Notes: generated by a model not told the origin, from the sequence alone. A stretch of DNA of 64,000 nt from Candidatus Rariloculaceae bacterium (GCA_965237785.1 OZ250159.1:117791-181790), one strand, 5' to 3'; positions 7,221-64,000 are shown, counted from the stretch's first letter. Numbers and translations: made by a program.

Positions 7221-7262
7221 GGACGATCTCTCCCTCGTCCGGGATTGCGTATTCGGTGGCCA

Positions 7263-14080: not shown

Positions 14081-14236
14081 TCCGCGGGAGGGCCGCTACG
14101 GTTTGCTCAATTATGGCCCATCTATCGCCACTCTCAACCCAAACCCGTCAATCGCCTTAAACACACCAGTTTCGGAGGTACGGTAGAAAACACGCGTAGT
14201 CCAAGCTATTCTCCATATCGTGCACGCGAATCGCTC

Positions 14237-44203: not shown

Positions 44204-44280
44204 GGGTGGGCAGTCTGCGAACGGTCCGCGGACAGGGACTGCTCGGCGGTATTCGTCAATCAGAAAAATTAAGTGGACAT

Positions 44281-44310
44281 AGTTTCACCGGCAAACTAGC
44301 CGGTGAAACT
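44281..44310. repeat. perfect 12-bp inverted repeat with 6-nt spacer (agtttcaccggc aaacta gccggtgaaact) between the receptor gene and brxA
   Basis: Read directly. Followed by the AT-rich tgctatatatattttcgcctctatact and then the brxA ATG at 44346. It could be a terminator hairpin, an operator or an island boundary. Confidence 0.8.
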
Positions 44311-44345
44311 TGCTATATATATTTTCGCCTCTATACTGCTCCGCC

Positions 44346-45155
44346 ATGAACGCGGTGTTCCACCTGGATTTCGACGCGGCAGTTGCCGGCATCCCCGAGC
44401 AAAGCGCCGCCGTTTGGGGCTTCCGCTTGGGGGAAAGGGGAACACACTCCAGCCGGACGATCATGTTCCAGGAGCTATCGCATCTTCTGGAAGTAACCGC
44501 AGGCGATGCGTCCCGTGAAGATTATGCCGACGCCGTTATTGGCGAGAATTGTTTGGGCAAGAGGACGGTGGCAAACCGCAAAATCTCGTTGCAGCACTTG
44601 CGGGAATTGTACGCGCTGGATCCTCGCGTTGTGCTCTTCCGCGCGCTCCGGGAACTGTGGGGCCGCGATCGGTCCAGCCGCGCCCTACTGGCGCTGTTGC
44701 TTGCTCTGGCGCGGGACCCCTTGCTCCGCGCGACCGCCGCCGCCGCGTTGCGCACACCGTTCGGCCACGAGTTTGCGAGGCAAGCCATGATGGACGCCGT
44801 AGCGGAAGCCGCCGGAGATCGCCTCAACAGCAAAACACTCGACAAGGTGGTGCGCAACGCGGCCTCCTCGTGGACTCAGTCCGGCCACCTGCGGGGGAGG
44901 GGGCGCAAGACGAGGGAAACGGTCCAGGCCACGCCGGCCGTGGCTGCGTATGCGCTGTTGATCGGATTCGCAACAGGCCGCCGCGGTCGTCTGCTGTTCG
45001 AGACGCCTTGGTGCAGCGTCCTGGACACCGACGCCGGCGAACTCATGGAACTGGCGGTCGCGGCGAAACGTCTCGGGTTGATCGGCTTCAAGCAGTCCGG
45101 TTCGATCATCGACGTGTCGTTTCCTGAGATGCTGATTTCACGGCGTGGGAGTTGA
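44346..45155 (+). CDS. brxA: BREX protein BrxA (DUF1819-like)
   Basis: ORF 44310..45155, likely starting at MNAVF (44346). Position (first gene, before brxB) and C-terminal pattern match my recollection of DUF1819. That pattern is NSKTLDKVVRNAASSWTQSGHLRGRG..TPAVAAYALLIGF...ELMELAVAAKRLGLIGF. Confidence 0.65.
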   Translation: MNAVFHLDFDAAVAGIPEQSAAVWGFRLGERGTHSSRTIMFQELSHLLEVTAGDASREDYADAVIGENCLGKRTVANRKISLQHLRELYALDPRVVLFRALRELWGRDRSSRALLALLLALARDPLLRATAAAALRTPFGHEFARQAMMDAVAEAAGDRLNSKTLDKVVRNAASSWTQSGHLRGRGRKTRETVQATPAVAAYALLIGFATGRRGRLLFETPWCSVLDTDAGELMELAVAAKRLGLIGFKQSGSIIDVSFPEMLISRRGS

Positions 45156-45158
45156 TGC

Positions 45159-45728
45159 ATGGGGCGTATGGACAGGTTGGCTGAGCGCTACGGGCGGTTT
45201 ATCTCGCTGCCTTGGCAGAAGGGACTGGCCGGAGCACAGCGCGCCATTTTCGTCGTCTATGACAAGAGCGACGAGCGGCGGTTGCGGGCTCGTATGGGTC
45301 GCTTCGAGTTGGCGACCAAGCAGGCCGGGCATGGCTGGATCCAGTGCGACCTTACCGGGGTCTTCGCGCAGTGGATGGCGAGCACGGAGTACCGGGAAAT
45401 TTATTTCGAGTCGCCGGAAGATCTGGATCTCAAGTTGGAAGACGAATTTCTCGCGCATGTTGTCGAGCGGGTGCGGCAAGCGCTGTCGGCGCCGCAAGCG
45501 GATAATGGCTCCGTGGTCGCGGTCTTCGGTATCGCGTCGCTGTTCGGGTTCGTGCGCGTGTCCGAGTTGATGAAGGCGCTTGAGCCGGACATAAGAGGCC
45601 GCATCCTGGTGTTTTTCCCGGGCGAGTACGAGGACAATAATTACCGCTTGCTGGATGCGCGGGACGGGTGGAACTACCTCGCGGTCCCGATTACCTTGCA
45701 GGAAGATCGAGGAGTGTACGAGGTATGA
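45159..45728 (+). CDS. brxB: BREX protein BrxB (DUF1788)
   Basis: 189-aa ORF. Has IFVVYDKSDERRLR, GIASLFGFVRVSELM and VFFPGEYEDNNYRLLDARDGWNYLAVPI, typical of DUF1788. Its stop overlaps the brxC ATG. Confidence 0.8.
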   Translation: MGRMDRLAERYGRFISLPWQKGLAGAQRAIFVVYDKSDERRLRARMGRFELATKQAGHGWIQCDLTGVFAQWMASTEYREIYFESPEDLDLKLEDEFLAHVVERVRQALSAPQADNGSVVAVFGIASLFGFVRVSELMKALEPDIRGRILVFFPGEYEDNNYRLLDARDGWNYLAVPITLQEDRGVYEV

Positions 45729-48700
45729 AGAACCGGGAGGTCTACCAGAGAAACCCTGACGAGATCATCCTCCTGAACAACGGCGTTGCGGTAATGACCG
45801 ACGCCGAGACGGGGGATGACCGCCGCACCCTGCGCTTCGAGTTGGAGCACTTCGTCTGCGAAGGCCAGTACCGGAGCGGGCTCGTTCGGATCCTCAATGC
45901 ATACGTCAGCCACCAGGGCCAACCCGAACAGCCGGCTGCCTGGATCAGCGGTTTCTTCGGCAGCGGCAAATCCCATCTGGCGAAGATGCTCCGTTTCCTG
46001 TGGACGGACTACACCTTTCCCGAGGATGGCGCCAGCGCCCGCGGGCTGGCGCGATTGCCCGACGAAGTGCTGGATTTACTCAAGGAAGTATCAACGCTGG
46101 GCAGACGGGGCCATGGGCTGCACGCTGCATCGGGAACTCTTGGTTCCGGTCCCGGGGGAAGCGTTCGGCTTGCCTTGCTCGGTATCGTATTCAAGTCCAG
46201 GGGACTCCCGGAAGGCTTGCCCCAAGCGCGCTTCTGCCTCTGGCTGGAAAGGAACGGAATTTACGACCAGGTCAGGACTGCGGTAGAGGCCCAAGGCCGC
46301 GAATTTCGGCGGGAGCTTAACGACCTGTACGTGAGCCCGCACATCGCCAACGCGCTGCTCGCCGAGGACGCAAACTTCGCAACCAGCGCGCGGGATGCCC
46401 GAGCGGTATTGCGTGCGCAGTTTCCCAAGCCCAAGGACATTACCACCGACGAATTCGTGGATGTGTTGCGAGATACCCTTGCGCCGGAGGGCGAGATGCC
46501 CTGCACGGTGGTCATCCTCGACGAAGTGCAGCAGTACATCGGCGAGGACACGGCCCGCTCCCTTGCGGTTCAGGAAGTCGTTGAAGCCTGCAGCAAGCGC
46601 TTCGGCGACCGCCTGCTCCTGCTGGGCACCGGGCAGACCGCTCTGTCCGGGACTCCCGTGCTGCAACGCCTCCAGGGCCGCTTCACCGTCAATGTGGAAC
46701 TCTCGGACCACGATGTCGAGACGGTCACTCGACGGGTCGTTTTGGCCAAACGCGCCGATCGGTTAAGCGATATCCAAGCGATGCTGGAGGCCAACGCCGG
46801 AGAGATCGACCGGCACTTGGTCGGCGCCAAGATCGCTCCGCGTAGCGAGGACCGATCAATTCTGCCGGACGACTACCCGCTGCTACCCGTGCGTCGGCGC
46901 TTCTGGGAACATGTGCTGCGCGCCGTCGACCGCGCTGGCACGGCCGGTCAACTCCGTACCCAGCTTCGCATCGTCTATGACGCCATCCGCCACACGGCGG
47001 GCCGTTCTCTCGGTACCGTAGTGCCGACCGACTTCCTGTTCGACGAGATATCGGCCAACATGTTGAATTCCGGGGTACTCCTCCGCGAACTCCACGAGAC
47101 CATCGTCAAGCAGGGGAGCGACGGTACCGCCGATGGCCGCCTCAAGTCGCGGCTCTGCGCCCTGGTGTTCCTGATCCGCAAGCTCCCGCGCGAAGCCGGG
47201 GCCGACATCGGCGTGCGGGCAACGATGGAGGTTCTGGCGGACCTGCTGGTGGAAGACTTGACCAAGGACGGTGCGGCGTTGCGGGCTCGGTTGCCGGCCC
47301 TCCTGGACGAGTTGGTGGATGCGGGCACATTGATGAAGCTCGACCGCGAGTACAGCCTGCAAACGCGGGAGAGCAGCGATTGGGAAGCGGAGTTTCGCAA
47401 CCGGCGCAACCGGATCGCGAACGATCCCACGAATATGAGCGGGAAGCGCGCCCAGCTTCTTGGCGCCGCCGTGCAGGAGGCGGTCGGTTCGACCAAGCTG
47501 CTACACGGGTCCAGCAAGGAGCCGCGAAAGCTCTCGCTGCACTTCAGCGCCGAGCCGCCCCGGGAAGGCGGCCCGGAGGTCCCGGTGTGGATTCGCGATG
47601 GTTGGGGTGCTGTTGAGAGCAGCGTGATCGCCGACGCACGCGCGGCCGGACCGGACAGCCCAGTTATCAACGTATTCGTACCGAAGTCCCGCGCTGACGG
47701 TCTGGCGCGCCTCATTGCCTCCCGGAGCGCCGCCAACGACACGCTGGAGTACAAGGGGGTGCCGTCGACACCCGAAGGTGTGGAAGCTCGCCAGGGCATG
47801 GAGACACGACTCGCCGACGCCGCAAACCAACTGCGGGCACTGGTAGCGGAGATTATTGGCGGCGCGAAGGTCATTCAGGGCGGTGGAAACGAACGACATG
47901 AGTTGACATTGGCCGACAGAGTCCGGGAAGCCGCCGGCGCGTCTCTCGCCCGGCTCTACTACGAATTCAATGATGCCGACGACCACCGTTGGCCCAAAGC
48001 GATAGCGCGCGCCCGCGCGGGCGATGAGCACCCGCTAGCCGTGTTGAACTACAGCGGCAAAACCGAGGAGCATCCCGTGTGCGCGGCCGTGCTCTCCTTC
48101 GTCGGCTCCGGCAAGAAGGGGAGGGACGTGCGTGCGCACTTTTCCGGCCCGCCTTTTGGCTGGCCCAGGGACGCCATCGACGCCGCCCTCATCGGCCTGT
48201 TCGGAGCCGGGCACCTGCGCGCCACGGCAAATGGCGTGGTGCTGCGGCCGCCCGGACTCGATCAGGCCAAGGTGCCCAGCGCGGACTTCCGGGTCGAGAG
48301 CGCGACCGTTGACACACGGCAGCGCTTGAAACTGCGCAAGCTGTTTCAGGATGCCGGCATCGACTGCAAGCCGAACGAGGAGTCAGCGGCGGCCGGGCAG
48401 TTGCTGGAAAAGCTAAGCCGTTTGGCCGAGGATGCGGGCGGCGATGCGCCCCTGCCCGAACGTCCGGATACACTCCACCTGTCGGACCTTCAGTCGCTTG
48501 CCGGCAACGAGCAACTCCTGGCCATTCTTGGGCGGGCTGACGAACTTGAAAAAAACCTGGACGACTGGAGAAAGGCGGGGAAGCTTGCCGGCGAGCGCGT
48601 TCCTGCGTTTAAGCGTTTGCAGGCCCTTGCGCGACACGCCGATGGTTTGGATGCCGCGAAGGATGCAAAATCCCAGATCGGCGCGATCGTCTCCGGTCGG

Positions 48701-49171
48701 CGCCTGCTCGATGCGTCGGACCCGATGCCCAACCTCGCCGGGAGCTTGGCGGATGGATTGCGGGCCGCGCTGGCACAATCGCAAGATCGTTACGACGAAA
48801 CCTATGACGAGGAGCGGAAACGCCTGGAAGCCACCGGGAGCTGGCAGCAGATCAAGTCGGAGGACCGTGAAGAAATACTTGCCCGGTTTCGTATTGAGAA
48901 GGTATCCAAGGGTGCAACCGGTACCGAAAGAGAAGTGCTGGAATCCCTGGAGCGCATATCTCTTGACGGCTGGCGAACGCGCACTGCGGCTCTCACCCAG
49001 TTGTTCGCGAATGGCCGGGCCGAAGCGGACCGGCTTGTCGAGCCGGAGATACGTCACATGAAGCTGGGGAGCGCTACGCTCCGTACCCCGGAGGACGTCA
49101 AAGCTTGGGTTGAAGAAACGAAGCGGGACCTGCTGAATCAGGTCGAGCAAGGCCCTATCGTAATCGGCTAA
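45725..49171 (+). CDS. brxC: BREX ATPase BrxC/PglY (DUF499-type P-loop protein)
   Basis: ORF 45668..49171 trimmed to MKNREVYQRNP (ATG 45725, ATGA overlap). Has Walker A GFFGSGKSHLAKML and Walker B VVILDEVQQY. About 1150 aa, as expected for BrxC. Confidence 0.85.
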   Translation: MKNREVYQRNPDEIILLNNGVAVMTDAETGDDRRTLRFELEHFVCEGQYRSGLVRILNAYVSHQGQPEQPAAWISGFFGSGKSHLAKMLRFLWTDYTFPEDGASARGLARLPDEVLDLLKEVSTLGRRGHGLHAASGTLGSGPGGSVRLALLGIVFKSRGLPEGLPQARFCLWLERNGIYDQVRTAVEAQGREFRRELNDLYVSPHIANALLAEDANFATSARDARAVLRAQFPKPKDITTDEFVDVLRDTLAPEGEMPCTVVILDEVQQYIGEDTARSLAVQEVVEACSKRFGDRLLLLGTGQTALSGTPVLQRLQGRFTVNVELSDHDVETVTRRVVLAKRADRLSDIQAMLEANAGEIDRHLVGAKIAPRSEDRSILPDDYPLLPVRRRFWEHVLRAVDRAGTAGQLRTQLRIVYDAIRHTAGRSLGTVVPTDFLFDEISANMLNSGVLLRELHETIVKQGSDGTADGRLKSRLCALVFLIRKLPREAGADIGVRATMEVLADLLVEDLTKDGAALRARLPALLDELVDAGTLMKLDREYSLQTRESSDWEAEFRNRRNRIANDPTNMSGKRAQLLGAAVQEAVGSTKLLHGSSKEPRKLSLHFSAEPPREGGPEVPVWIRDGWGAVESSVIADARAAGPDSPVINVFVPKSRADGLARLIASRSAANDTLEYKGVPSTPEGVEARQGMETRLADAANQLRALVAEIIGGAKVIQGGGNERHELTLADRVREAAGASLARLYYEFNDADDHRWPKAIARARAGDEHPLAVLNYSGKTEEHPVCAAVLSFVGSGKKGRDVRAHFSGPPFGWPRDAIDAALIGLFGAGHLRATANGVVLRPPGLDQAKVPSADFRVESATVDTRQRLKLRKLFQDAGIDCKPNEESAAAGQLLEKLSRLAEDAGGDAPLPERPDTLHLSDLQSLAGNEQLLAILGRADELEKNLDDWRKAGKLAGERVPAFKRLQALARHADGLDAAKDAKSQIGAIVSGRRLLDASDPMPNLAGSLADGLRAALAQSQDRYDETYDEERKRLEATGSWQQIKSEDREEILARFRIEKVSKGATGTEREVLESLERISLDGWRTRTAALTQLFANGRAEADRLVEPEIRHMKLGSATLRTPEDVKAWVEETKRDLLNQVEQGPIVIG

Positions 49172-49183
49172 CGGAGGCACGCG

Positions 49184-50353
49184 ATGTTACTGCACCGAAT
49201 CAGACTGAAGAACGTGCTCTCGTTCGGCCCCGATGGTCAGGACCTGGAACTCAAGCCGCTGAACGTGCTGATCGGCCCGAACGGTTCCGGCAAGTCGAAT
49301 CTAATCGAGGCGATTGGATTGTTGCGGTCTGCTCCAACGGATTTGCAGAAGCCGATTCGCGAGGGCGGCGGCACCGGCAACTGGATATGGAAGGGTGAGC
49401 CAAAGGAAACCTTCGCCGAGTTGGAAGTCGTCGTTCCGTATGGTGGTAACAGGTTGCTTCGCTACAGACTGACATTCTATGAAGAAGATCAACGGTTCCG
49501 GTTGCACGGAGAGCGTTTGTGTGCCGAAGGCGATGACCGTGATCCGGATCCAATTCCTTACTTCGACGCTGGTGCAAACAACGTCCATCTGCTTTACGAG
49601 GACTCGCGCCGGGAAACTGGTCGAACCATAGTCAAAGTTAAGCCCGGAAGTTCCAATCAGTCTGTTTTCGCCAGAATCAAAGGCCCCACGTACCCTGAAC
49701 TTACGCACACAGGGGAGCAATTCCAGCGCATTCGTCTCTTCCGAGAGCCGTTTTTCGGTAGGCGCACACCGCTACGGTGGCCCCAAAAAACCGACGATCC
49801 CAACGACTTCCTCATAGAAGATGGGAAGAACCTCGGTTTGATGCTGAACCGTTTGAAGCGAGAGCCAAAGGCCAAGACTCAACTTTTGAGCGAATTGCAG
49901 AAGCTCTACGAAGGTATCGTGGACTTCGATGTGAGCATTGAGGGTGGCTCAGTCCAGGTATTTCTGCAGGAAGGCAACATTACCGTGCCCGCAACTCGTC
50001 TGTCGGACGGCACGCTCCGCTACCTTTGCTTGCTCGCCATTCTCTACCATCCAACACCTCCGCCACTCGTTTGTATCGAGGAACCGGAGTTGGGTCTACA
50101 TCCGGACATTCTTCCGGGTTTGGCGGAGTTATTGCGAGACGCCTCCGAACGCTGTCAATTGATCGTCACAACCCATTCGGACGTACTGGTGGATAAGCTC
50201 ACCGATACACCCGAAAGTGTCGTCATCTGCGAGAAGCACGGCGGGCAAACTCAACTGCAACGCTTGGACAAGGATGAACTCACCCATTGGCTTGAGCGAT
50301 ACAGCCTCGGGGTCCTGTGGACGAAAGGCGAATTGGGAGGGAACCGCTGGTGA
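49184..50353 (+). CDS. ABC/SMC-type ATPase (AAA_21-like), non-canonical insert in the BREX locus
   Basis: 389-aa ORF with GGAGG upstream. Has Walker A GPNGSGKSNLIEAI, a signature-like LSDGTLRYLCLL, Walker B LVCIEEPELGLHP and H-loop IVTTHSD. Confidence 0.8.
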   Translation: MLLHRIRLKNVLSFGPDGQDLELKPLNVLIGPNGSGKSNLIEAIGLLRSAPTDLQKPIREGGGTGNWIWKGEPKETFAELEVVVPYGGNRLLRYRLTFYEEDQRFRLHGERLCAEGDDRDPDPIPYFDAGANNVHLLYEDSRRETGRTIVKVKPGSSNQSVFARIKGPTYPELTHTGEQFQRIRLFREPFFGRRTPLRWPQKTDDPNDFLIEDGKNLGLMLNRLKREPKAKTQLLSELQKLYEGIVDFDVSIEGGSVQVFLQEGNITVPATRLSDGTLRYLCLLAILYHPTPPPLVCIEEPELGLHPDILPGLAELLRDASERCQLIVTTHSDVLVDKLTDTPESVVICEKHGGQTQLQRLDKDELTHWLERYSLGVLWTKGELGGNRW

Positions 50354-50958
50354 GCTCGATTGTATATGTGGAAGGTGGCGGAGATACCAAAGCGTTGAGA
50401 ACAGAATGCCGAAAGGGCTTTGGTGAATTCTTCGACAAGGCAGGACTGAAGGGCCGCATGCCAAGAATCTCGGCTTGCGGCAGCCGACAGCAAGCATATG
50501 ATGATTTTCGCCACGCTTTAGACAAACCAGGGAATGACCGTTTTGCGGTGTTGCTGGTCGACAGCGAAGGGCCGGTCGCAAAGGTGTCCGACGCATGGTC
50601 ACACTTGAAGACTCGCGACAACTGGAATCGTCCGGATATGGCCACGCATGACGGCGCCCATCTGATGGTTCAATGCATGGAGGCATGGTTTTTGGCCGAT
50701 CAGGCCACGCTGGCGGAGTTTTTCGGAGTTGGATTCAACCGAAACGCCCTCCCGGCCCGCCCGGATGTCGAGAACATTCAGAAAGCTGATATTGGGCAGG
50801 GATTGAACAGAGCCACGCGCCGGTGCGCGTCAAAAGGCGCGTACCGCAAAGGACGACACTCGTTCGCGATTTTAGCGAAGTTAAACCCTGAGAAGGTGGT
50901 TGCTGCCTCGCCGCATGCAAAGCGGTTGGTAGACACTCTCTTGGCCAAGGCGTCGTAA
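50350..50958 (+). CDS. DUF4276 family protein (partner of the preceding ATPase)
   Basis: GTG 50350 overlaps the ATPase stop (GTGA), with GGGAGGG 8 nt upstream; the alternative GTG at 50317 is the track start. VSSIVYVEGGGDTKALRTECRKGF...AVLLVDSEGP...MVQCMEAWFLAD matches my recollection of DUF4276. Confidence 0.65.
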   Translation: MSSIVYVEGGGDTKALRTECRKGFGEFFDKAGLKGRMPRISACGSRQQAYDDFRHALDKPGNDRFAVLLVDSEGPVAKVSDAWSHLKTRDNWNRPDMATHDGAHLMVQCMEAWFLADQATLAEFFGVGFNRNALPARPDVENIQKADIGQGLNRATRRCASKGAYRKGRHSFAILAKLNPEKVVAASPHAKRLVDTLLAKAS

Positions 50959-51031
50959 CGGCAGGCGGAAACGTGAAAGAGGAATCTCTAAGTATTCCAT
51001 TCATTGAAAAATATGCGATCAAGAGAGCAAC

Positions 51032-51244
51032 ATGGCCAGACAACTGACAGCGATCATCGAACGTGAGGACGAGGGTCATGTCTCCCGCGGTCCAGAGATG
51101 GACACTGCGATCACAGTACCGGAAACACTCGCCATCCATTGCCGCGAACCCTACGAACATATGAACTTCGATAAGTACACGCCGCGCCGCCGACCGCGCG
51201 CTCACACGCGCCAAGTCGGCGACCGGTGTGCCCCACGTTACTGA
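51032..51244 (+). pseudogene. chimeric remnant: HicB-antitoxin-like N-terminus fused to a diverged copy of the pglX 5' region
   Basis: 70-aa ORF. MARQLTAIIEREDEGHVSRGPEMD resembles a HicB N-terminus (..AIIEREDDGYVA.CPELD..). ETLAIHCREPYEHMNFDKYTPRRRPRAHTRQVGDR parallels pglX residues EALAVHRREPYEHMSGKQRLQRRRLRARGRQLGDR (52.3-52.44 kb). Confidence 0.5.
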
Positions 51245-51253
51245 GACCCAAAT

Positions 51254-52261
51254 ATGGCATTCAAAAGAACGGAAAATACCTTTGATACTGTCCTCGATTG
51301 GGCCGGTTTCATCGCCATAAGTGTGATCGCGACGGCTGTACTCAGCGCGGTAATCCACCATTTTCTTCATGTCGAGTTTCCGGATGCCACAATCAGGGTG
51401 TTGATATTTAGTGTCGTAGCGGCTCTCATCGCCGTGCTAATTTCGGCTCACTTCATCGCCGTTTTTACGCGAGATTTATCAGTCAATGGTTCTAGTAAAT
51501 CCAGTCAAAATAACGAGTCGTTTCCGCCTCGGTTAAAAACGGTCTTCGTTTATGGGTATATCCTTATGTTGGCGGCCTTGGGTTTGTGCGCAGCGCCATT
51601 TGTTGTTCCTATTGACGCGGTTGACCATTCTTCTAAAGAAACGTTCGCCGTCGGCATTGTTGCTGGCTGTCGTTCCGATGACTGCGCTGAGACTGTCAAT
51701 GAACCGCAATGGTTCCTCCACATTGGAAGTAGCATCTCGACGCTTGCGATAGACGGTCAGCCCGCGAGCAACGAACTCAAGGGCGGGCTTGTAGTTCCCC
51801 TCTACATTGTATTACTCGCCTTGATGGGCGGTTCGGTGAGCATGATACGGCGAGTACCGGAATATCAAAAACAAGCAGCAGGCCAGAGTAGCGATAAGAA
51901 CCCTGACAAGGTGTCATCCATCACGCCGATCCGTGCTCGGGAATTGGTCGTTTTCCAGATAATGCAGGTCTTTACAGCTCCATTGATTGCTGTTACTGCC
52001 TTTGCGGTATTCGATCCCGACACCGTCACATCGGGAGCGTTGCTTGGATTCCTGTCAGGTTTTACATCTGAGACGATTCTCTTACGTTTGCGCGTTGCGA
52101 CAGACGCACTCTCGGGACGAACAAACAAGGTTCCAACCAAAGATGCCACCTCGCCCGCGTCCTCGGCCCCGCCCAGCGCTGCGTCGGGACGGAAGGATAC
52201 AGATTTAAATGCAGGGGCTCAGCAGGCACAGGACGGGGCGAATGCGAACCCTGGAGGCTGA
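51254..52261 (+). CDS. predicted ~6-TM membrane protein of unknown function, low-GC insert immediately upstream of and overlapping pglX
   Basis: 335-aa ORF with hydrophobic helices (FIAISVIATAVLSAVIHHFL, VLIFSVVAALIAVLISAHFIAVF, YGYILMLAALGLCAAPFVV, LVVPLYIVLLALMGGSVSMI, FQIMQVFTAPLIAVTAFAVF, LLGFLSGFTSETILL). It has an Ala/Ser/Pro-rich tail. Hand counts of two 60-nt lines (51241, 51481) give 40% GC. Confidence 0.6.
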   Translation: MAFKRTENTFDTVLDWAGFIAISVIATAVLSAVIHHFLHVEFPDATIRVLIFSVVAALIAVLISAHFIAVFTRDLSVNGSSKSSQNNESFPPRLKTVFVYGYILMLAALGLCAAPFVVPIDAVDHSSKETFAVGIVAGCRSDDCAETVNEPQWFLHIGSSISTLAIDGQPASNELKGGLVVPLYIVLLALMGGSVSMIRRVPEYQKQAAGQSSDKNPDKVSSITPIRARELVVFQIMQVFTAPLIAVTAFAVFDPDTVTSGALLGFLSGFTSETILLRLRVATDALSGRTNKVPTKDATSPASSAPPSAASGRKDTDLNAGAQQAQDGANANPGG

Positions 52262-55200
52262 ATATAGGAAACAACTTGAGCGAGTTGTCTCAGAGGCCCG
52301 TGACGTAGCGGAGTCTGGGGCTCGCACGGCGCTGGAGGCACTCGCCGTGCATCGGCGCGAGCCCTACGAGCATATGAGTGGGAAACAGCGGTTGCAGCGT
52401 CGGCGGCTGCGCGCCCGCGGCCGGCAACTCGGCGACCGGCGCGATGCACGCTCCGGAACTCAAGTCATCGGCCGCTTGGCGCACGAATGCGCCTACGAGC
52501 GCTGGCACGGTATGCTGTTTGCCCGTTTCCTCGCTGAGAACCGTCTGCTCATCGAACCGGAGTTTAGCGTCGCCGTCACGCTGGCGGAATGTGAGGAACT
52601 GGCGAAAGAAGGGGGCATTGACAAGTGGGCGATGGCCGCGCGCTTTGCTCATCGGATGCTGCCCCAGGTGTTCCGTCCCGATCATCGGGCTTTCGAGGTT
52701 CCGTTTGCGCGAGAACACCGGCTGAAGCTGGAGGAGTTGGTCGAAAGTCTGCCGGCTGGCGTGTTCACGGCGACGGATTCTCTCGGCTGGGTCTACCAGT
52801 TCTGGCAGTCCAGAAAGAAGGCCGAGGTGAACCGTTCCGAGGTCAAGATCGGGGCGGACGAGTTGCCGGCGGTGACGCAGTTGTTCACGGAGCCCTACAT
52901 GGTGAGCTTCCTGCTCGACAACGCCCTTGGAGCTTGGTGGGCGGCGCGCCGTCTGAGCGACACTGAACTGAATGCCGCCACCGGCGAAGCGGAGCTACGG
53001 CGTAAAGCAGCGATTCCCGGTTTGCCACTCGATTACTTGCGCTTCGTACAATGCGAAGATACTGCGGAGCGGGCCGAATGGCGCCCCGCGGCCGGCACCT
53101 TCGACGGTTGGCCGGATGATTTGGGGGAGCTGAGAGTCCTCGATCCCTGCTGCGGCTCCGGGCATTTCCTGGTAGCGGCCTTCTCGATGCTCGTGCCCAT
53201 GCGCATGGCGCGGGAGGGGCTCGCCGCCCGCGACGCCGTCGATGCGGTCTTGTGGGAGAATCTGCATGGACTGGAGTTGGACCCGCGCTGCGTGGAACTT
53301 GCGGCGTTCGCGCTTGCGCTTGCCGCCTGGACGTATCCCGGCGCGGGCGGGTATCGGTCCCTGCCGGAGTTAAACATCGCCTGCTCGGGGCTCTCGGTCG
53401 GGACCGCAAAGGAGCGCTGGACCGAACTGGCGGAGGGCAGGCACAACCTGCGGATCGCATTGGACTGGATGCATGTCGCGTTCAGGGATGCGCCGGTACT
53501 GGGTAGTCTGCTGGACCCTGCCGCAACGGAAGCTGCCAAGCTGATGGACTGGCGAGACTTGTCGGCTGCCTTGGCGGAGGCTCTCGCGCGGGAGGAGTCC
53601 GACGAACGGCGCGAGACCGCGGTTGCGGCCCGGGGACTCGCCAGAGCCGCCGAGTTGCTGTCCGGGCGGTATCACTGGGTGATCACCAACGTGCCGTATC
53701 TCGCCCGCGGCAAGCAGGGCAAGACGCTGCGCCGCTTCTGCGAACAGCGTTACTCCGCCGCAAAAAACGATCTGGCCACGGTGTTTTTGGAGCGCTGCCT
53801 GGAACTGTGCATGGAGGGCGGAACCGCCAGCCTCGTGCTCCCGCAGAACTGGCTGTTTCTCACCAGCTACCGAACACTCCGGGAAAAGCTGCTAAAGACG
53901 GAGACTTGGCATTTGCTCGCTCGACTTGGTCCGAAAGCCTTTCGAACGCCCATGTGGGACTTCAATGTTCAGTTGCTCACCCTAAGCCACGATAACCGTG
54001 CCAGGCGCGCAGGTGGATTGTTCGGCGAAGAAGAGTCTCTCGGCACGATGTGCGGTCTGGATGTTTCCGAATCCCGCACCGCTAGTGGCAAAGCCATTCA
54101 GTTGGCAGATACGGCAATCCAAAGCGTTGAGCAGGCTCGACAGTTGGAGAACCCGGATGCGCGGGTGTCGCTGGACGACATCTCTAGTCAAGGGAGGCTG
54201 GATCGCTATTGCATAAGCATCGAAGGCCTGACGACGGGGGATTTGGGGAGATTTGTCGGCAAGTTCTGGGAGGGAACGCTTTTAGACGGTTGGGACCCAT
54301 ATATTCAGAACGTAGATTCCACAACACATTTCGGCGGTCGTACTGACCGAATCTTCTGGGAAAATGGAAACGGTGTGCTATCTCGGTTTCCAACTGCACA
54401 TAATTTCCCCAGCGAAATCATGAACGGTAAAAGAGTTTTGGGGAAGACTGGGCTCCGTGTAACTCAAATGGGGGCACTCCCGGTAACAACCTACAAGGGT
54501 GAAGTATTTGGCAAGAACGGGGCGACGGTTGTACCAAATGACCCGGAGCATCTCCCCGCTATCTGGTGCTTTTGCTCATCTCCAGAATACAGCGAGGCGG
54601 TGAGGTGTATCGACCAGGCGCTCAAAGTCACCAACGCAACCCTGGCTAAGGTTCCCTTCGATTTTGACCGTTGGGCCAAGGTTGCCAACGAACGATACCC
54701 GAGCGGTTTTCCTCTCCCATACGCCGATGATCCCACCCAATGGATATTCCACGGTCATCCGTGCGGATCGGTCGTTTGGGATGAGACGGAGAAACGAACT
54801 GCCCATGGTCCAGTTCGCACCGACGTTACTGTATTGCAGACCGCCGTCGCCCGCTTGCTCGGATACCGCTGGCCCGCAGAACAGGATGCCGACATTGAAT
54901 TGGCCGACGAGCAGCGTGCGTGGGTACAGCGCTGCAATGTACTCCTCGCCCACGCAGACGAGGACGGCATAGTCTGCATCCCATCGGTGCGCGGCGAACC
55001 GTCGGCTAGCGAGCGCGTGTTAGACTTTCTGAGGGCTGCCTTTGATGATGGTTGGGATAACGACGTCCTCAATACGCTGCTCGCCAAGACAGGAAGCTCT
55101 ACCCTCGATGATTGGTTACGGAATCGTTTCTTTGGCGAGCACTGCAAGACGTTTCACCACCGTCCGTTCGTCTGGCACGTCTGGGACGGTCGCCGAAATG

Positions 55201-55703
55201 ACGGCTTCCACGCGCTTATCAACTATCACAAGCTGGCGGCGGGTGACGGCAGGGGCCGCCGACTCCTGGAATCCCTGACCTATAGCTATCTCGGTGACTG
55301 GATCGCCCGCCAACAAGACGGCGTGAAGCGCGGCGAAGGCGGCGCCGAGGACCGGCTGGCCGCGGCACTGGAACTACAGAAACGCCTGGTTGCCATCATT
55401 GCGGGCGAGCCGCCCTTCGATATCTTCGTCCGCTGGAAACCTATCGAAGATCAGCCTATCGGATGGGAACCGGACATCAACGACGGAGTGCGCCTCAACA
55501 TCCGCCCGTTCATGGCCGACGATATCCCCGGCGGCAAGAAGGGAGCCGGCATCCTCCGTGCGAAACCGAACATTCACTGGCGGAAGGATCGTGGCAAGGA
55601 GCCGTTCCGAGAACAGGAGCAGTTCCCGTGGTTCTGGCACAATGGCGAATTCACCGGCGAGCGAGTAAACGATGTGCACCTGACAGTCATGGAGCGCTCG
55701 TGA
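52242..55703 (+). CDS. pglX: BREX adenine-specific DNA methyltransferase PglX
   Basis: ORF 52209..55703, with start at 52209 or 52242. Has ERWHGMLFARFLAENRLLIEP and the SAM motif VLDPCCGSGHFLV. The catalytic motif is VITNVPYL (an NPPY variant). About 1150 aa, downstream of brxABC. Confidence 0.85.
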   Translation: MRTLEAEYRKQLERVVSEARDVAESGARTALEALAVHRREPYEHMSGKQRLQRRRLRARGRQLGDRRDARSGTQVIGRLAHECAYERWHGMLFARFLAENRLLIEPEFSVAVTLAECEELAKEGGIDKWAMAARFAHRMLPQVFRPDHRAFEVPFAREHRLKLEELVESLPAGVFTATDSLGWVYQFWQSRKKAEVNRSEVKIGADELPAVTQLFTEPYMVSFLLDNALGAWWAARRLSDTELNAATGEAELRRKAAIPGLPLDYLRFVQCEDTAERAEWRPAAGTFDGWPDDLGELRVLDPCCGSGHFLVAAFSMLVPMRMAREGLAARDAVDAVLWENLHGLELDPRCVELAAFALALAAWTYPGAGGYRSLPELNIACSGLSVGTAKERWTELAEGRHNLRIALDWMHVAFRDAPVLGSLLDPAATEAAKLMDWRDLSAALAEALAREESDERRETAVAARGLARAAELLSGRYHWVITNVPYLARGKQGKTLRRFCEQRYSAAKNDLATVFLERCLELCMEGGTASLVLPQNWLFLTSYRTLREKLLKTETWHLLARLGPKAFRTPMWDFNVQLLTLSHDNRARRAGGLFGEEESLGTMCGLDVSESRTASGKAIQLADTAIQSVEQARQLENPDARVSLDDISSQGRLDRYCISIEGLTTGDLGRFVGKFWEGTLLDGWDPYIQNVDSTTHFGGRTDRIFWENGNGVLSRFPTAHNFPSEIMNGKRVLGKTGLRVTQMGALPVTTYKGEVFGKNGATVVPNDPEHLPAIWCFCSSPEYSEAVRCIDQALKVTNATLAKVPFDFDRWAKVANERYPSGFPLPYADDPTQWIFHGHPCGSVVWDETEKRTAHGPVRTDVTVLQTAVARLLGYRWPAEQDADIELADEQRAWVQRCNVLLAHADEDGIVCIPSVRGEPSASERVLDFLRAAFDDGWDNDVLNTLLAKTGSSTLDDWLRNRFFGEHCKTFHHRPFVWHVWDGRRNDGFHALINYHKLAAGDGRGRRLLESLTYSYLGDWIARQQDGVKRGEGGAEDRLAAALELQKRLVAIIAGEPPFDIFVRWKPIEDQPIGWEPDINDGVRLNIRPFMADDIPGGKKGAGILRAKPNIHWRKDRGKEPFREQEQFPWFWHNGEFTGERVNDVHLTVMERS

Positions 55704-58700
55704 TCGACTTTAGTCTTATCAAGCCGGCAGCGTCCATTTTCGCACGCATCGTGCCGCGCTTTCGCCGCTTGGCGGCTGAGCGGCAAGTGGCTCGCAGTCC
55801 CCATAAGGTGCCTCCAGATCACGCAGATCAGATATTCGAAGAGGCGTTGCGGCGTCTTGGCGCGGTCAATAGCGATGACCCTGAATGGAAACGGATCGTT
55901 GGATCCGCGATCAGTGGGATCATACAACCCGCGCATTTCCGCAAGCCCCAAGTAAAGGAGTGGCTTTCCCGGACGGATACCAAGCAAGACTTGAAGATAC
56001 TCGCGAAGGCGGCGCTTGTCGGCGAGGCTGCGAATGGTGAAGCAACAAATCGGTTGATATCCACATACATGGATATCTCCGGTGAAGACAAGCATTGCGC
56101 AGAGTCGGTCATCCAGAGCGTGGGAGCGGTTCTCAGGACTAGTTTGACCGCGACGGTCCAGGACCCCGGAACAGCGGCCTACGTTCAGGCAGGGTTCGCA
56201 TCCTTGAATCGTCGCATTGACGCGACGGGCATCCCGTCGCTGGTCCCGATCACGCACGGCGCGACCGAGCCTACCGACGAGGGCGCGAAGATCGATGTCT
56301 CGGTTGTTCGACGTGCCTTTGGAGAAGCTTCGCGTTTGCTGCTGGGTTGGCCTCAAGATACGGACGGACATTGGATCGACCGTCCGGAACTAGATCAACT
56401 ACACAGTCGGGCCACGCAGGAAGAACCTGCACTTACTGTGCTACTGGGGCGTCCCGGAGCAGGAAAGTCGGCGATCCTTGCGCGGCTGGGCGCTAGGCTT
56501 AAGGAAGAGGGAAAAATCTTGTTGGCGATCAAGGTCGACCAGATTCCCGCAGGCTGCTCTACGCTCGCTGATATTGATGAGTGGGTAGGGTGCGAAGACG
56601 TAACGAATGCACTTCGTCAGTTGTCGGAAACGCGGCGCGTCGTGGTGTTGATCGACCAACTCGATGCGTTGGCCGATCTGATGGATCAGCACTCAAACCG
56701 TCTCACGGCGCTCCTTCAGCTTGTTGGGTCGATAAGGGGAACGCCGAATCTCCAGGTCATATTGTCGTGCCGGGAGTTTGAATTTCGCAACGACGTGCGG
56801 CTGAGCACGTTGGGCGCCGAAGCGGTGACGCTGGAACCGCCGCCTTGGGAAGCTGTGGCGCCTTTGCTAAGCACGTATGGCGTTTCGGTTGAACAGTTCG
56901 GTGAGGAGCAGCGCGAAGTTCTCCGCACACCGCAACACCTGGCCGTATTCGTCCACTATTTCGTCAAGCGGGATCGGCAACCGGTGTTCTCAACGTATCA
57001 GGCGCTTCTTGACCACGCCATCAGGGAAGATATCGAGGGCGTGTACGGCCGGCGGACGGTGTCGGCGGCCGAACGTGTTGCTATTGAGATGGCGAGTGAT
57101 GAGGAACTATGGATAGCTCGGGGTCGATTTACGGCGGAATACAACGATGAGCTAAACAATCTTTTGGCGGCTGGGTTCCTGGTGCAATCGGAGAATGGCC
57201 TCAGCATCGCGTTCCGCCATCAGACTGTATTCGATTTCCTCCGCGCAAGAGCCTTCATGGGCGGTGGCCGCAATCTGGCCGAGTACGTCCTCACCGAGAA
57301 GCAAGAGTCTCTGTTCGTTCGGCCGATTCTATGGAGCGCGTTGACTTACCTGCGTGAAAGTGACCGCGCGGTGTATCGGCGAGAGCTTGACCGCTTGTGG
57401 AGTCACGATGAGTTGCGATTGCACCTGCGGTTGCTGATTGCCGCCTTTTTGGGGCAACTTCCGGATCCCGATGAGGTGGAGGCGGCCTGGTTGCTGCCGA
57501 AGCTGGATGATGCGGAATTCAAGAGGAAGATACTGCTCGCGATGGCGGGTAGTCCCGGCTGGTTTAATAGAATGAAGGCTCGTCTGCCCGGTCTTATGTC
57601 GGCGGGGCGGGAACAGGCATCGAATTTGACGCCACTACTCGGCAGGGCGATGGCCTTTGCCCGCGACGATGTGTTGGCCCTTGTTGAGAAACACTGGTTG
57701 ACACGCGATGAATGCTGCTCGCTCGTCTATTGGATGCTCTATGACCTAACTTCATGGGACCGTAAAAGCGTGGATTTGGCGGGGCGATTCGCAGCGAAAG
57801 TTGCCGACGGCTCGTCCGGAGATAGTCATCAAGCGCTCCATATTGCGAAACAAATTGCGAAACAGAAGCCCGATATGGCGCCCGTCGTGCTGTTCCGATA
57901 CTTGCAGGAACGTACTGATCGGATGTTTACCAGCAGCGAGTCCGGCGGACAGTCGATGGATCGCGAAATTGCAGGACTGTTCGGAAGCAGTGGCGATTGG
58001 TACGGCGTGAACGAACTGGCAAGCAAGGCGCCCAACGAGTTCATTCGGCACGGATGGCGCTGGTTGACGAAGACACTCGGGAGGTTGGCCCAAGACGCGA
58101 ATCCCTTCATGGTCGAATATCGGGGTTGCCATAATTTTCCAAGTTGGGGCGATAACGACGAAACGCTGTGGAGCGCCTTTGAAGCGGCAATGCGGCGGTT
58201 CGCAGAGACCGAACCCGACGAATTCTTGAGGTTCGTCAACGAGAACAAGCAGTTAGACCTGATGCTGGTGCATCATCTACTGGCGCTTGGCCTTGAACGA
58301 ATTGCGCCGGAAGATCCCCAGGCCGTTATCGACTACCTGCTTGGCGACGCCAGGCGCTTCGCGATTGGGGACGTCATGAGTCGTCATCGCTTTAGCCGAG
58401 GATTGATCGCCGGCGTCGTGCCCAAGGCGTTGAACGTCGACGTATCGCGTTTAGAACTGGCGATCCTAAACTGGCGGTACTATCGAGACTTGGGCGAAGA
58501 CCCCAAATCGCGTTTCGGGAGGATGAAGTGGATAAGAGAGTCTCGGATGAGGCTTTTGCGTTGCTTTCCATCTGAACAGTTGTCTTCAGAGACGCGAGGA
58601 TACCTACGGGAGGAAGAACGAGCGCTTCCGAATGTCAAGGATGACGAGATCGGCCCTTTGCGAGGTGGTTGGGTCGGCAGTCCAATGACCGCGCAGCAGA

Positions 58701-60193: not shown

Positions 60194-60336
60194 AGGTGCC
60201 ACAACAATGCCGGTTGACGCTTTATGCGGCGCAAAGCGAGTCTGTGCAATGGACAAATCGGGCGTCATGCGGCACTAGTATTCGGCAAGCCCGCGAGCGT
60301 GAACGAGTCGATGCGCCGGGATGTTAAAGGTGAATC

Positions 60337-63087: not shown

Positions 63088-63097
63088 GGAACAAGAC

Positions 63098-64000
63098 ATG
63101 GAATGGCCCGACGTATTGCGGCGCATCGAAGGCGGGGAAGACGCCCTTACCGAGTTCAAGCGCGGTCTCGGAGACTTCAGCGGCGTCGGCAAGACGCTAT
63201 GTGCATTTGCGAATGGCGATGGCGGTCTTATCGTGGTTGGCGTCGTCGATCCCGGGGTGATCGTCGGTGTGAGGGAAAATCCGGAGGCCGTGCAGGAACG
63301 GCTGACGAGCTTCCTTAACAGTGGCTGTGGAAAACCCATCACTGCCCAGTGCGGCCGTCGCGAAACGACCGATGGATGGGTGCATTGGGTCGAAGTTCGC
63401 CGCCATCAGCGAGGATATGAGCCGTTCAGCTATGACGGGCGGTTCTGGATTCGGCGGGTGCGAAGTACGGTCCACCCATCTCCCTCGGAGTTACAGGAAC
63501 TATTGAATGTTTTCGGCTTGGTGCTAACTGAGCAACAGGTCATCTCGACAGCAGCGGTCAGCGATATCGATGTGGGCGCTTTTCGCTCGTTCATGCAGGC
63601 GCAGGGTATGCGAATGGAGGAAGAGCCGCAGCCGGACATCGAAAATGACATGCTAAACGCCGCGGTGTGCGACTGGTTGGAGGGCGTGCTTCGCCCAACG
63701 CTATATGGAGTAATGGTTTTCGGCAAAGAGCCGCAGGGACATCCGCACACAACCAGCCTGTTCATTCAGTGTGTCGCCTACGATGGCGTCGACCAAGCCG
63801 CGGAAGTGCTGAGCGCGGGCGAGGGGAAGGGCCGCCTAGACGAACAGGTGAGCCATTCCATGGGATGGTTTCGCAGCTTGGGACGAGGAGAGGCTTATCG
63901 AGGGCTGTATCGCGAGGATATACCCCTCGTACCGGAAGGAGTTCTCCGGGAAGCGCTCGTCAACGCCGTTATTCACCGTGACTATGCATTGACTGGGTCG
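63098..64000 (+). CDS. AlbA_2 (Schlafen-like 'divergent AAA') DNA-binding domain protein, 3' end beyond the right edge
   Basis: Not in the ORF track (no stop in the window). Hand translation from ATG 63098 gives MEWPDVLRRIEGGEDALTEFKRGLGDFSGVGKTLCAFANGDGGLIVVGV.... It continues to ...VLREALVNAVIHRDYALTGS and is open to position 64000. The start lies 10 nt after the preceding stop. Confidence 0.7.
   Translation, partial: MEWPDVLRRIEGGEDALTEFKRGLGDFSGVGKTLCAFANGDGGLIVVGVVDPGVIVGVRENPEAVQERLTSFLNSGCGKPITAQCGRRETTDGWVHWVEVRRHQRGYEPFSYDGRFWIRRVRSTVHPSPSELQELLNVFGLVLTEQQVISTAAVSDIDVGAFRSFMQAQGMRMEEEPQPDIENDMLNAAVCDWLEGVLRPTLYGVMVFGKEPQGHPHTTSLFIQCVAYDGVDQAAEVLSAGEGKGRLDEQVSHSMGWFRSLGRGEAYRGLYREDIPLVPEGVLREALVNAVIHRDYALTGS

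What the first reader, a model, noticed from the sequence alone, without database searches (positions are those of the whole stretch)
49184..50958. ABC-type ATPase + DUF4276 two-gene cassette wedged between brxC and pglX
The two genes are start-stop coupled (GTGA, strong SD), begin 12 nt after brxC, and have visibly lower GC than brxABC. The layout is an ABC/AAA_21-like ATPase plus a small partner of about 200 aa. This parallels OLD-family nucleases, PARIS (AriA + AriB) and AbiL (ATPase + RloB-like), where the small partner is the effector. DUF4276 has no assigned function that I know of. Insertion inside another defence operon is typical of hitchhiking defence cassettes. I cannot say from memory whether this pair is already catalogued.
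Basis: inference. Interest (0 to 1): 0.62.

Follow-up and report, generated by a model that had tools for sequence, protein, structure and literature searches.

The report
Known HEC-01 ATPase-nuclease pair inside BREX
The two overlapping genes are an intact copy of an already catalogued candidate anti-phage module (PADLOC "HEC-01": an ABC-type ATPase plus a small Toprim-like nuclease) lodged in a known cargo slot of a BREX defence locus, so the finding is real but ordinary.

Summary
A 389-aa ATPase gene (49184-50353) starts 12 nt after brxC. It overlaps by GTGA a 202-aa DUF4276 gene (50350-50958). Both have lower GC (0.55) than brxABC (0.60-0.64).

The pair is not uncatalogued. Both proteins match PADLOC's HEC-01A and HEC-01B models over their full length (E 5e-160 and 2e-80). 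HEC-01 is defined in Payne et al. 2024 as an ABC ATPase plus a TOPRIM-like protein. It was negative in their phage panel; a cold-seep homologue protected E. coli in a later study. The related DUF4276 module MAD3-MAD4 was shown in 2026 to be a 2:2 ATPase-nuclease complex that cleaves DNA. OLD-type ABC ATPase plus TOPRIM pairs nested in BREX have also been reported.

My models agree. A has an SMC/Rad50/PtuA/OLD-like head fold. B gives the OLD Toprim region as its only, weak, structural hit and has invariant E8 and D71xE73.

New details:
- 13 of 80 related loci sit in the same brxC-pglX slot.
- Some stand-alone copies keep brxC or pglX scars.
- A sister genome keeps the ATPase but has TIR plus a membrane protein in place of DUF4276.

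Verdict: already known kind, low interest.

The parts
44310..45155 (+). brxA (BREX type 1). The true start is probably some codons downstream of the first in-frame start.
   Evidence: PADLOC BrxA PDLC02450, E 2.9e-96, residues 32-276
45159..45728 (+). brxB
   Evidence: PADLOC BrxB PDLC02469, E 7e-78; Pfam BrxB
45668..49171 (+). brxC. The longest ORF is given; the model match starts at residue 20.
   Evidence: PADLOC BrxC PDLC02489, E 0, 1495 bits, full length
49172..49183 (+). 12-nt spacer with a GGAGG Shine-Dalgarno sequence between the brxC stop and the HEC-01A start.
   Evidence: Sequence. The same 11-13-nt spacer occurs in 10 of 13 BREX-embedded relatives.
49184..50353 (+). HEC-01A: OLD-like ABC ATPase, 389 aa. 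Motifs: Walker A GPNGSGKS (31-38), signature LSDGT (273-277), Walker B/D-loop LVCIEEPELGLHP (295-307), H-loop TTHS (329-332). A variable beta-rich insert spans about residues 71-160.
   Evidence: PADLOC HEC-01A PDLC04177, E 5.3e-160, residues 1-389. Pfam AAA_21, 2e-40. Invariant motifs in 39 sequences. AF2 pLDDT 83.5; Foldseek hits to SMC, Rad50, PtuA and OLD heads at E 1e-14 to 1e-12. Conservation profile.
50350..50958 (+). HEC-01B: DUF4276 Toprim-like putative nuclease, 202 aa. Its GTG start overlaps the HEC-01A stop (GTGA).
   Evidence: PADLOC HEC-01B PDLC04201, E 2.4e-80. Pfam DUF4276, 1e-22. Invariant E8, D71, E73, E111, D117, K167 in 40 sequences. AF2 pLDDT 94. Foldseek top hit is 6njv, the OLD C-terminal region, at prob 0.87, E 0.09.
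51008..51244 (+). Diverged remnant of a pglX 5' end (includes the small ORF 51032-51244). It lies inside a stretch of roughly 260 nt that the closest relatives L002 and L003 lack.
   Evidence: Profile of PglX N-termini, E 9.9e-11. 72% DNA identity to the resident pglX 5' end. Alignment with L002/L003.
51254..52261 (+). 335-aa multi-pass membrane protein gene with the lowest GC in the locus (0.52) and no family. It is separate cargo, not part of HEC-01.
   Evidence: No Pfam, PADLOC or NCBIfam hit. Found next to HEC-01 only in L002/L003 (85% identity) and L024 (53%), out of 82 loci.
52209..55703 (+). pglX (BREX methyltransferase). The likely start is M12, at 52242.
   Evidence: PADLOC PglX PDLC02528, E 0, 1672 bits, residues 12-1163

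Best explanation
The cassette is a member of the HEC-01 family: a stand-alone OLD-like ABC ATPase (HEC-01A) and a DUF4276 Toprim-like nuclease (HEC-01B). It is carried as cargo in the brxC-pglX slot of a type 1 BREX locus.

Shown here:
- Both proteins are intact, with all ATPase motifs and the Toprim-type acidic residues conserved.
- The genes follow brxC after 12 nt with their own Shine-Dalgarno sequence, and they overlap each other by GTGA. This layout implies co-transcription with brxABC and coupled translation.
- The pairing and the GTGA overlap are conserved across phyla.

Inferred from the characterised relative MAD3-MAD4, and from PARIS, OLD and Gabija:
- A and B form a hetero-oligomer, probably 2:2, in which the ATPase holds and regulates the nuclease.
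- The variable beta-rich insert of A (about residues 71-160) is the likely sensing surface.
- On infection the complex cuts nucleic acid in a Mg-dependent manner. DNA is more likely than tRNA, by analogy with MAD3-MAD4.
- This gives a second line of defence or abortive infection when BREX is bypassed or inhibited.

My odds: HEC-01 membership 0.95; ATPase-nuclease complex 0.7; anti-phage function 0.6; trigger is an anti-BREX factor such as an Ocr-like DNA mimic 0.2.
For: - Full-length PADLOC hits: HEC-01A 5.3e-160 and HEC-01B 2.4e-80. Pfam AAA_21 and DUF4276.
- Best PDB sequence hit of A is the Thermus OLD nuclease 6p74, followed by PtuA and AriA.
- The A model matches SMC, Rad50, PtuA and OLD heads at E about 1e-14.
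- The B model has pLDDT 94 with beta1-E8 and beta3-D71xE73. The only Foldseek hit with high probability is the OLD C-terminal Toprim region.
- In all 78 related loci where the upstream DNA is present, A lies directly upstream of B. 69 of 75 have the GTGA overlap.
- 13 of 80 species-level loci, plus L002/L003, sit between brxC and pglX.
- DUF4276 is patchy and multi-copy within the genus and absent from 44 other relatives.
- Literature: HEC-01 definition, TOPRIM similarity and OLD-like metal site (10.1101/2024.01.29.577857). A HEC-01 protected E. coli B against at least one of T4, T5 and T7 (PMC12881386). MAD3-MAD4 is a 2:2 complex with ATPase and DNA cleavage, and its DxE-type pocket includes D81 and E83 (PMC13662399). 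OLD-ABC plus TOPRIM pairs are embedded in BREX in many taxa (PMC12839542).
Against: - No experiment exists on this locus.
- The HEC-01 tested by Payne et al. gave no protection against their E. coli phage panel.
- Foldseek support for the Toprim fold of B is weak by score (E 0.09, TM 0.45; nothing at E <= 1e-3).
- In MAD3-MAD4 the link between ATP hydrolysis and cleavage is unresolved, and catalytic-site mutants only modestly reduced cleavage.
- Outside BREX, the immediate neighbours of this subfamily are mostly housekeeping genes, so classical defence-island enrichment is weak.
- The trigger and the substrate are pure inference.
Confidence: 0.7

Rival explanations
1. The pair is not an independent system. 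It is an integrated accessory nuclease branch of this BREX variant. It would work with the methylation-based self/non-self marking, as MAD3-MAD4 does within the methylation-associated MADS system.
For: - MAD3/MAD4 (ATPase plus DUF4276) is required for defence by MADS, an m6A-based system (PMC13662399).
- The 11-13-nt brxC-to-HEC-01A junction is conserved in 10 of 13 embedded loci across several phyla.
- Stand-alone copies still carry brxC 3' scars, which suggests BREX is the home context of this lineage.
Against: - Most related loci (about 65 of 80) have no BREX genes within 10 kb and sit among housekeeping genes.
- Related BREX loci in G028 and G011 have an empty brxC-pglX junction.
- In sister genome G001 the DUF4276 gene is replaced by TIR plus 8xMP.
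- The HEC-01 tree needs at least 5-8 changes of the embedded state.
Confidence: 0.15
2. The pair is a selfish addiction or toxin-antitoxin-like module: the nuclease is the toxin and the ATPase the antidote. It would stabilise itself or the island and give no direct anti-phage benefit.
For: - Pfam labels AAA_21 as 'putative AbiEii toxin, type IV TA system'.
- Stand-alone copies are scattered in housekeeping contexts.
- MAD4 is insoluble or unstable without MAD3.
- One HEC-01 showed no phage protection.
Against: - Another HEC-01 did protect against phage.
- The family is recurrently embedded in Hma, BREX and RM loci.
- No plasmid or phage copies of this subfamily were found. That is unusual for addiction modules.
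Confidence: 0.1
3. The cassette is a decaying, non-functional passenger.
For: Some relatives are decaying: L029 and L069 have in-frame stops, and DUF4276 copies in G016 and G012 carry stops.
Against: Here both ORFs are full length against their HMMs. All catalytic motifs are intact, and both Shine-Dalgarno sequences and the GTGA coupling are preserved.
Confidence: 0.03

Closest known systems
HEC-01 (Hma-embedded candidate 01; PADLOC-DB v2; Payne et al., bioRxiv 10.1101/2024.01.29.577857)
   Same: Same two-gene architecture: an ABC ATPase plus a TOPRIM-like DUF4276 protein. Both proteins give full-length hits to the family's own HMMs (PDLC04177, PDLC04201). The pair is embedded in a larger defence system in the same orientation.
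   Different: The host system here is type 1 BREX (brxC-pglX slot) rather than Hma. This subfamily occurs mostly in uncultured environmental bacteria and has not been tested.
MAD3-MAD4 module of MADS (Pseudomonas aeruginosa; PMC13662399)
   Same: A separate ABC-type ATPase plus a DUF4276 Toprim-like protein, sitting within a methylation-based defence locus. It has an acidic pocket with a DxE motif and is the only biochemically and structurally characterised DUF4276 pair.
   Different: Sequence relationship is distant. The NCBIfam MAD3 equivalog scores 92.7 bits against a cut-off of 420, and there is no mad4 HMM hit. None of the other mad genes are present. MADS needs the module for its own function, whereas here it looks like exchangeable cargo.
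PARIS (AriA ABC ATPase + AriB DUF4435 Toprim nuclease)
   Same: A split ATPase/Toprim two-gene system. The ATPase acts as sensor and scaffold. PARIS is known to be triggered by anti-restriction proteins such as Ocr, which also inhibit BREX, and it is also found embedded in BREX.
   Different: The effector family differs: DUF4276 here, DUF4435 in PARIS. The ATPase is only distantly similar (8ux9 AriA, E 0.003). No phage or satellite copies of this subfamily were found. The tRNA-cleavage mechanism is not established for DUF4276.
OLD-family nucleases (class 1/2) and Gabija GajA
   Same: The nearest solved sequence relative of A is the Thermus OLD nuclease 6p74. The nearest structural match of B is the OLD Toprim/C-terminal region, 6njv.
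   Different: In OLD and GajA the ATPase and Toprim domains are fused in one polypeptide. Here they are two translationally coupled genes, and no GajB-type helicase is adjacent.

Membership tests
HEC-01 (PADLOC) | Protein A matches a HEC-01A profile | tested here: met
   PDLC04177, E 5.3e-160, 530.7 bits, residues 1-389 on profile positions 3-393 of 393
HEC-01 (PADLOC) | Protein B matches a HEC-01B profile | tested here: met
   PDLC04201, E 2.4e-80, residues 4-200 on profile positions 5-199 of 202; Pfam DUF4276 1e-22
HEC-01 (PADLOC) | The two genes are adjacent and co-oriented | tested here: met
   4-nt GTGA overlap, conserved in 69 of 75 relatives
HEC-01 (PADLOC) | A has an ABC (not AAA+) ATPase fold with Walker A, signature, Walker B and H-loop | tested here: met
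   Motifs invariant in 39 sequences. Foldseek hits to SMC, Rad50, PtuA and OLD heads at E 7e-15 to 1e-12.
HEC-01 (PADLOC) | B has a TOPRIM-like fold with an OLD-like acidic metal site | tested here: inconclusive
   The high-confidence model (pLDDT 94) places invariant E8 after beta1 and D71xE73 after beta3. The Foldseek top hit is the OLD C-terminal region 6njv, but only at prob 0.87, E 0.09, TM 0.45. No solved DUF4276 structure was in the libraries.
HEC-01 (PADLOC) | Anti-phage activity | not testable with these tools
   The literature is mixed: negative in Payne et al., positive for a cold-seep homologue.
MADS (MAD3/MAD4) | MAD3 equivalog score, and presence of the other mad genes | tested here: not met
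   NCBIfam NF047739 scores 92.7 bits against a cut-off of 420. PADLOC mad3 scores only 84.9 bits and there is no mad4 hit. The neighbours are BREX genes.
PARIS | AriB (DUF4435 Toprim) partner | tested here: not met
   B hits only HEC-01B models and DUF4276, with no AriB or DUF4435 hit.
OLD family / Gabija GajA | ATPase and Toprim fused in one polypeptide (plus GajB helicase for Gabija) | tested here: not met
   Two separate ORFs. PADLOC Old scores only 54 bits on the C-terminal ATPase motifs. There is no helicase in the slot.
AbiL | AbiLi ATPase plus an AbiLii/RloB-type partner | tested here: not met
   AbiLi gives a weak hit, 1.9e-28, against 5e-160 for HEC-01A. B is not RloB.
BREX type 1 (host locus) | brxA, brxB, brxC, pglX, pglZ and brxL in order | tested here: met
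   brxA, brxB, brxC and pglX lie in the window. pglZ and brxL lie just beyond its end, at L001 1511-3847 and 3844-5898.

The most novel reading that the evidence does not exclude
Two linked ideas.

First, the brxC-pglX junction of type 1 BREX is the home site of this HEC-01 lineage. Cassettes would move as units that drag along short pieces of brxC (3' end) and pglX (5' end), without any recombinase of their own. They would be exchanged between BREX loci by flanking homology and occasionally land in housekeeping DNA.

Second, HEC-01A is a re-usable sensor ATPase that can be re-paired with unrelated effectors. In sister genome G001 the DUF4276 gene is replaced, exactly at the ATPase stop codon, by a ThsB-like TIR protein plus an 8xMP membrane protein.
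Probability: 0.3. Interest if true: 0.45.

Novelty: already known. Interest (0 to 1): 0.2.

Why it matters
The locus adds one more intact, natively embedded example to a family that is catalogued but whose own mechanism, trigger and substrate are unsolved.

Its practical value is as a test case. Here HEC-01 sits directly behind brxC in a complete BREX operon. That makes it possible to ask whether such nested ATPase-nuclease pairs act as a back-up when BREX is inhibited, or instead contribute to BREX itself.

Three side observations give modest new leads on how embedded defence cassettes move and are rebuilt:
- the conserved junction with brxC;
- the brxC and pglX scars around stand-alone copies;
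- the effector swap in a sister genome.

None of this changes the classification.

Tried and rejected
- **HicB reading of ORF 51032-51244.** It has no Pfam support, and the whole ORF aligns to PglX N-termini. I read it as a pglX 5' remnant only.
- **The 335-aa membrane protein as a third HEC-01 component.** Rejected: it accompanies HEC-01 in only 3 of 82 loci.
- **Mosaic breakpoint inside brxC.** I looked for one by sliding identity against L002, G001 and G011. There is no sharp boundary, only a local dip inside HEC-01B.
- **Direct or inverted repeats flanking the cassette.** Only short, chance-level matches.
- **Promoter and terminator scan.** Nothing above shuffled expectation between brxC and pglX.
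- **Rfam scan of 44000-64000.** No RNA family.
- **Foldseek of B against viral structures, and tblastn of B against phage and plasmid records.** No matches.
- **Profile search of B against PDB sequences.** No solved relative in that copy.
- **Defence-island enrichment from immediate neighbours.** Apart from BREX, and a few AAA_21/DUF3226, GmrSD and XamI neighbours, they are mostly housekeeping genes.

Full report
**Observation.** The window holds two + strand ORFs at 49184-50353 (389 aa) and 50350-50958 (202 aa).
- brxC ends with TAA at 49169-49171. Twelve bases follow (cggaggcacgcg, with GGAGG), then the ATG.
- The first gene's TGA overlaps the GTG of the second (GTGA), with GGAGGG 7 nt upstream.
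- GC is 0.55-0.56 (GC3 0.62-0.63) for the pair. brxABC has 0.60-0.64 (GC3 0.75-0.77) and the genome 0.613.
- Pfam gives AAA_21 (2e-40) and DUF4276 (1e-22).

Between the pair and pglX lie a pglX 5' remnant and a 335-aa membrane-protein gene.

**Locus context.** PADLOC identifies brxA, brxB, brxC and pglX in the window. pglZ and brxL lie just beyond its end (L001). This is therefore a complete type 1 BREX locus with two cargo slots.
- brxC-pglX slot: the pair, the remnant and the membrane gene.
- pglX-pglZ slot: a 1500-aa STAND NTPase, a 916-aa Ppl-like ABC ATPase and a Schlafen/AlbA_2 protein.

The genome is a single 4.39-Mb contig. It belongs to an unnamed gammaproteobacterial genus: G011 has the same length as OY761822.1.

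**What the pair is.** Both proteins hit PADLOC's HEC-01 models over their full length: HEC-01A PDLC04177 at 5.3e-160 and HEC-01B PDLC04201 at 2.4e-80.
- HEC-01 was defined by Payne et al. (bioRxiv 10.1101/2024.01.29.577857) as an ABC ATPase with a TOPRIM-like partner that shares the OLD metal site. It gave no protection in their E. coli/BASEL assays.
- A randomly chosen cold-seep HEC-01 protected E. coli B against at least one of T4, T5 and T7 (PMC12881386).
- DUF4276 was placed in the Toprim superfamily in the Menshen study (PMC12065111).
- As MAD4 it forms, with the ATPase MAD3, a 2:2 heterotetramer with ATPase and Mg-dependent DNA-cleaving activity (PMC13662399).
- A 2026 BREX survey reports OLD-type ABC ATPases with TOPRIM and other nucleases nested in BREX in more than a thousand taxa, and interprets them as back-up effectors (PMC12839542).

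The pair is therefore already named and catalogued, and its BREX embedding is a described theme.

**My own checks of the fold claims.**
- *HEC-01A.* The best PDB sequence hit is the Thermus OLD nuclease 6p74 (3e-8), followed by PtuA and AriA. An AF2 model (pLDDT 83.5) matches SMC, Rad50, PtuA and OLD head domains at E 7e-15 to 1e-12. Walker A (GPNGSGKS), signature (LSDGT), Walker B/D-loop (CIEEPELGLHPD) and H-loop (THS) are invariant in 39 sequences. Residues about 71-160 are a poorly conserved beta-rich insert, which I take as the likely sensing surface (inference).
- *HEC-01B.* The AF2 model has pLDDT 94. Invariant E8 follows beta1 and invariant D71-x-E73 follows beta3, which is the Toprim pattern. 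MAD4 has D81/E83 in its pocket. Foldseek's only high-probability hit is the OLD C-terminal Toprim region 6njv, but weakly (prob 0.87, E 0.09, TM 0.45). I therefore rate the fold test inconclusive on score, though consistent. No solved DUF4276 structure was in the libraries.

**Family-wide anatomy.** The B protein has more than 2200 homologues at E <= 1e-3 and 368 hits among 185,579 species genomes. Findings in the 80 loci fetched:
- HEC-01A lies directly upstream wherever the DNA is present.
- 69 of 75 loci keep the GTGA overlap.
- 13 of 80 loci, plus the metagenomic L002/L003, lie between brxC and pglX. The brxC-to-A spacer is 11-13 nt in 10 of those 13.
- The remaining loci have mostly housekeeping neighbours. 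The exceptions are a few AAA_21/DUF3226 pairs, a GmrSD and a XamI enzyme.
- On an A+B tree the BREX-embedded state needs at least 8 changes, 5 of them forced by well-supported branches. Cassettes have therefore entered or left the slot repeatedly.
- No phage or plasmid copies were found.
- Among 61 relatives, DUF4276 occurs only in the window's genus: 7 of 17 genomes, with up to 7 copies.

**Scars.**
- Four stand-alone Binatia loci (L019, L020, L022, L029) carry a significant remnant of the brxC 3' end directly upstream of HEC-01A (nhmmer E 3.5e-7 to 2.3e-6 in 1.2 Mb).
- Alphaproteobacterial copies L033 and L037 share the string ccatcggctgaggaggcgcgcg directly before the start codon. It matches 21 of the 22 bases at the same place in BREX-embedded L017 (ccatcggctgaggaggcgcacg), where these bases are the last brxC codons and the spacer.
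- L029 also has a weak pglX 5' remnant right after HEC-01B (E 0.009).
- The window itself has a clear remnant at about 51008-51244 (E 9.9e-11; 72% DNA identity to the resident pglX). L002 and L003 lack it.

These scars suggest that the mobile unit includes short flanks of brxC and pglX. I did not find a sharp recombination boundary in the window's own brxC.

**Sister genomes.**
- G001 (same genus, BrxC 75% identical) has brxC followed by an intact HEC-01A (74% identical). Homology stops exactly at the ATPase stop codon. A ThsB-like TIR protein and an 8xMP membrane protein replace DUF4276, and two pglX copies follow.
- G011's BREX carries a different HEC-01 lineage (A 61% identical although BrxC is 79% identical). 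G011's stand-alone copy (L007) is closer to the window's pair.
- A more distant BREX subtype in G028 and G011 has an empty brxC-pglX junction. It carries PtuA or HEC-02A between pglX and pglZ.
- The window's genome has a second HEC-01 of another subfamily, next to a type III-like methyltransferase and a UvrD helicase.

**Mechanism.**
- *Shown:* intact genes, conserved catalytic motifs, conserved translational coupling, and an operon position behind brxC.
- *Inferred from MAD3-MAD4, PARIS and OLD:* a hetero-oligomer in which the ATPase scaffolds and gates the Toprim nuclease. Infection-dependent activation would lead to cleavage of nucleic acid, as a second line of defence when BREX fails.
- *Rivals:* an integrated BREX accessory nuclease (0.15), an addiction module (0.1), and a dead passenger (0.03).
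- The trigger and the substrate are unknown.

**Verdict.** The kind is already known (HEC-01, with BREX embedding reported). Interest is low. The scars and the effector swap are modest new leads.

Noticed in passing
L092 (G001:C1:5374000-5392100, reverse strand) 12456-14570: In a same-genus genome the brxC-pglX slot holds an intact HEC-01A (74% identical to the window's). Homology to HEC-01B ends exactly at the ATPase stop codon. A ThsB-like TIR protein (136 aa) and an 8xMP membrane protein (149 aa) take its place. Two pglX copies (56% and 70% identical), separated by a 357-aa ORF, follow.
   Followed up: partly
window 51008-51244: Diverged remnant of a pglX 5' end between HEC-01B and the membrane gene (profile E 1e-10). 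It is absent from the closest relatives L002 and L003. The HicB-like look of its first 25 residues has no profile support.
   Followed up: yes
window 51254-52261: 335-aa multi-pass membrane protein with no family and the lowest GC in the locus (0.52). It overlaps the pglX start region. It is conserved at 85% identity in L002/L003 and 53% in L024, at the same position.
   Followed up: partly
L019, L020, L022, L029 about 8760-8832; L033 and L036 about 8757-8796: Stand-alone HEC-01 copies outside BREX keep a remnant of the brxC 3' end directly upstream of HEC-01A. It is significant in four Binatia loci and a short, position-exact match in alphaproteobacterial loci. L029 also has a weak pglX 5' remnant downstream.
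   Followed up: partly
G000:C1:804212-806037 (L095 4213-6038): A second HEC-01 pair of another subfamily (PDLC04175/PDLC04188) in the same genome. It lies between a 949-aa type III-like methyltransferase (with an endonuclease-domain gene upstream) and a 689-aa UvrD-like helicase.
   Followed up: partly
window 55463-64000 and L001 42-1397: The pglX-pglZ slot carries three further cargo genes: a roughly 1500-aa STAND NTPase, a 916-aa ABC ATPase with a Ppl-like C-terminus, and a 451-aa Schlafen/AlbA_2 protein. pglZ and brxL follow beyond the window end.
   Followed up: partly
L093 7186-9062; L094 6972-7985: In a more distant BREX subtype of related genomes, brxC and pglX are directly adjacent. 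A PtuA (Septu-like) or HEC-02A ABC ATPase sits between pglX and pglZ.
   Followed up: no
L043, L044, L048, L067 about 7000-8750: In Latescibacterota, HEC-01 is preceded by another AAA_21 ATPase plus a DUF3226 protein. That is two paralogous ATPase/small-partner pairs in tandem.
   Followed up: no
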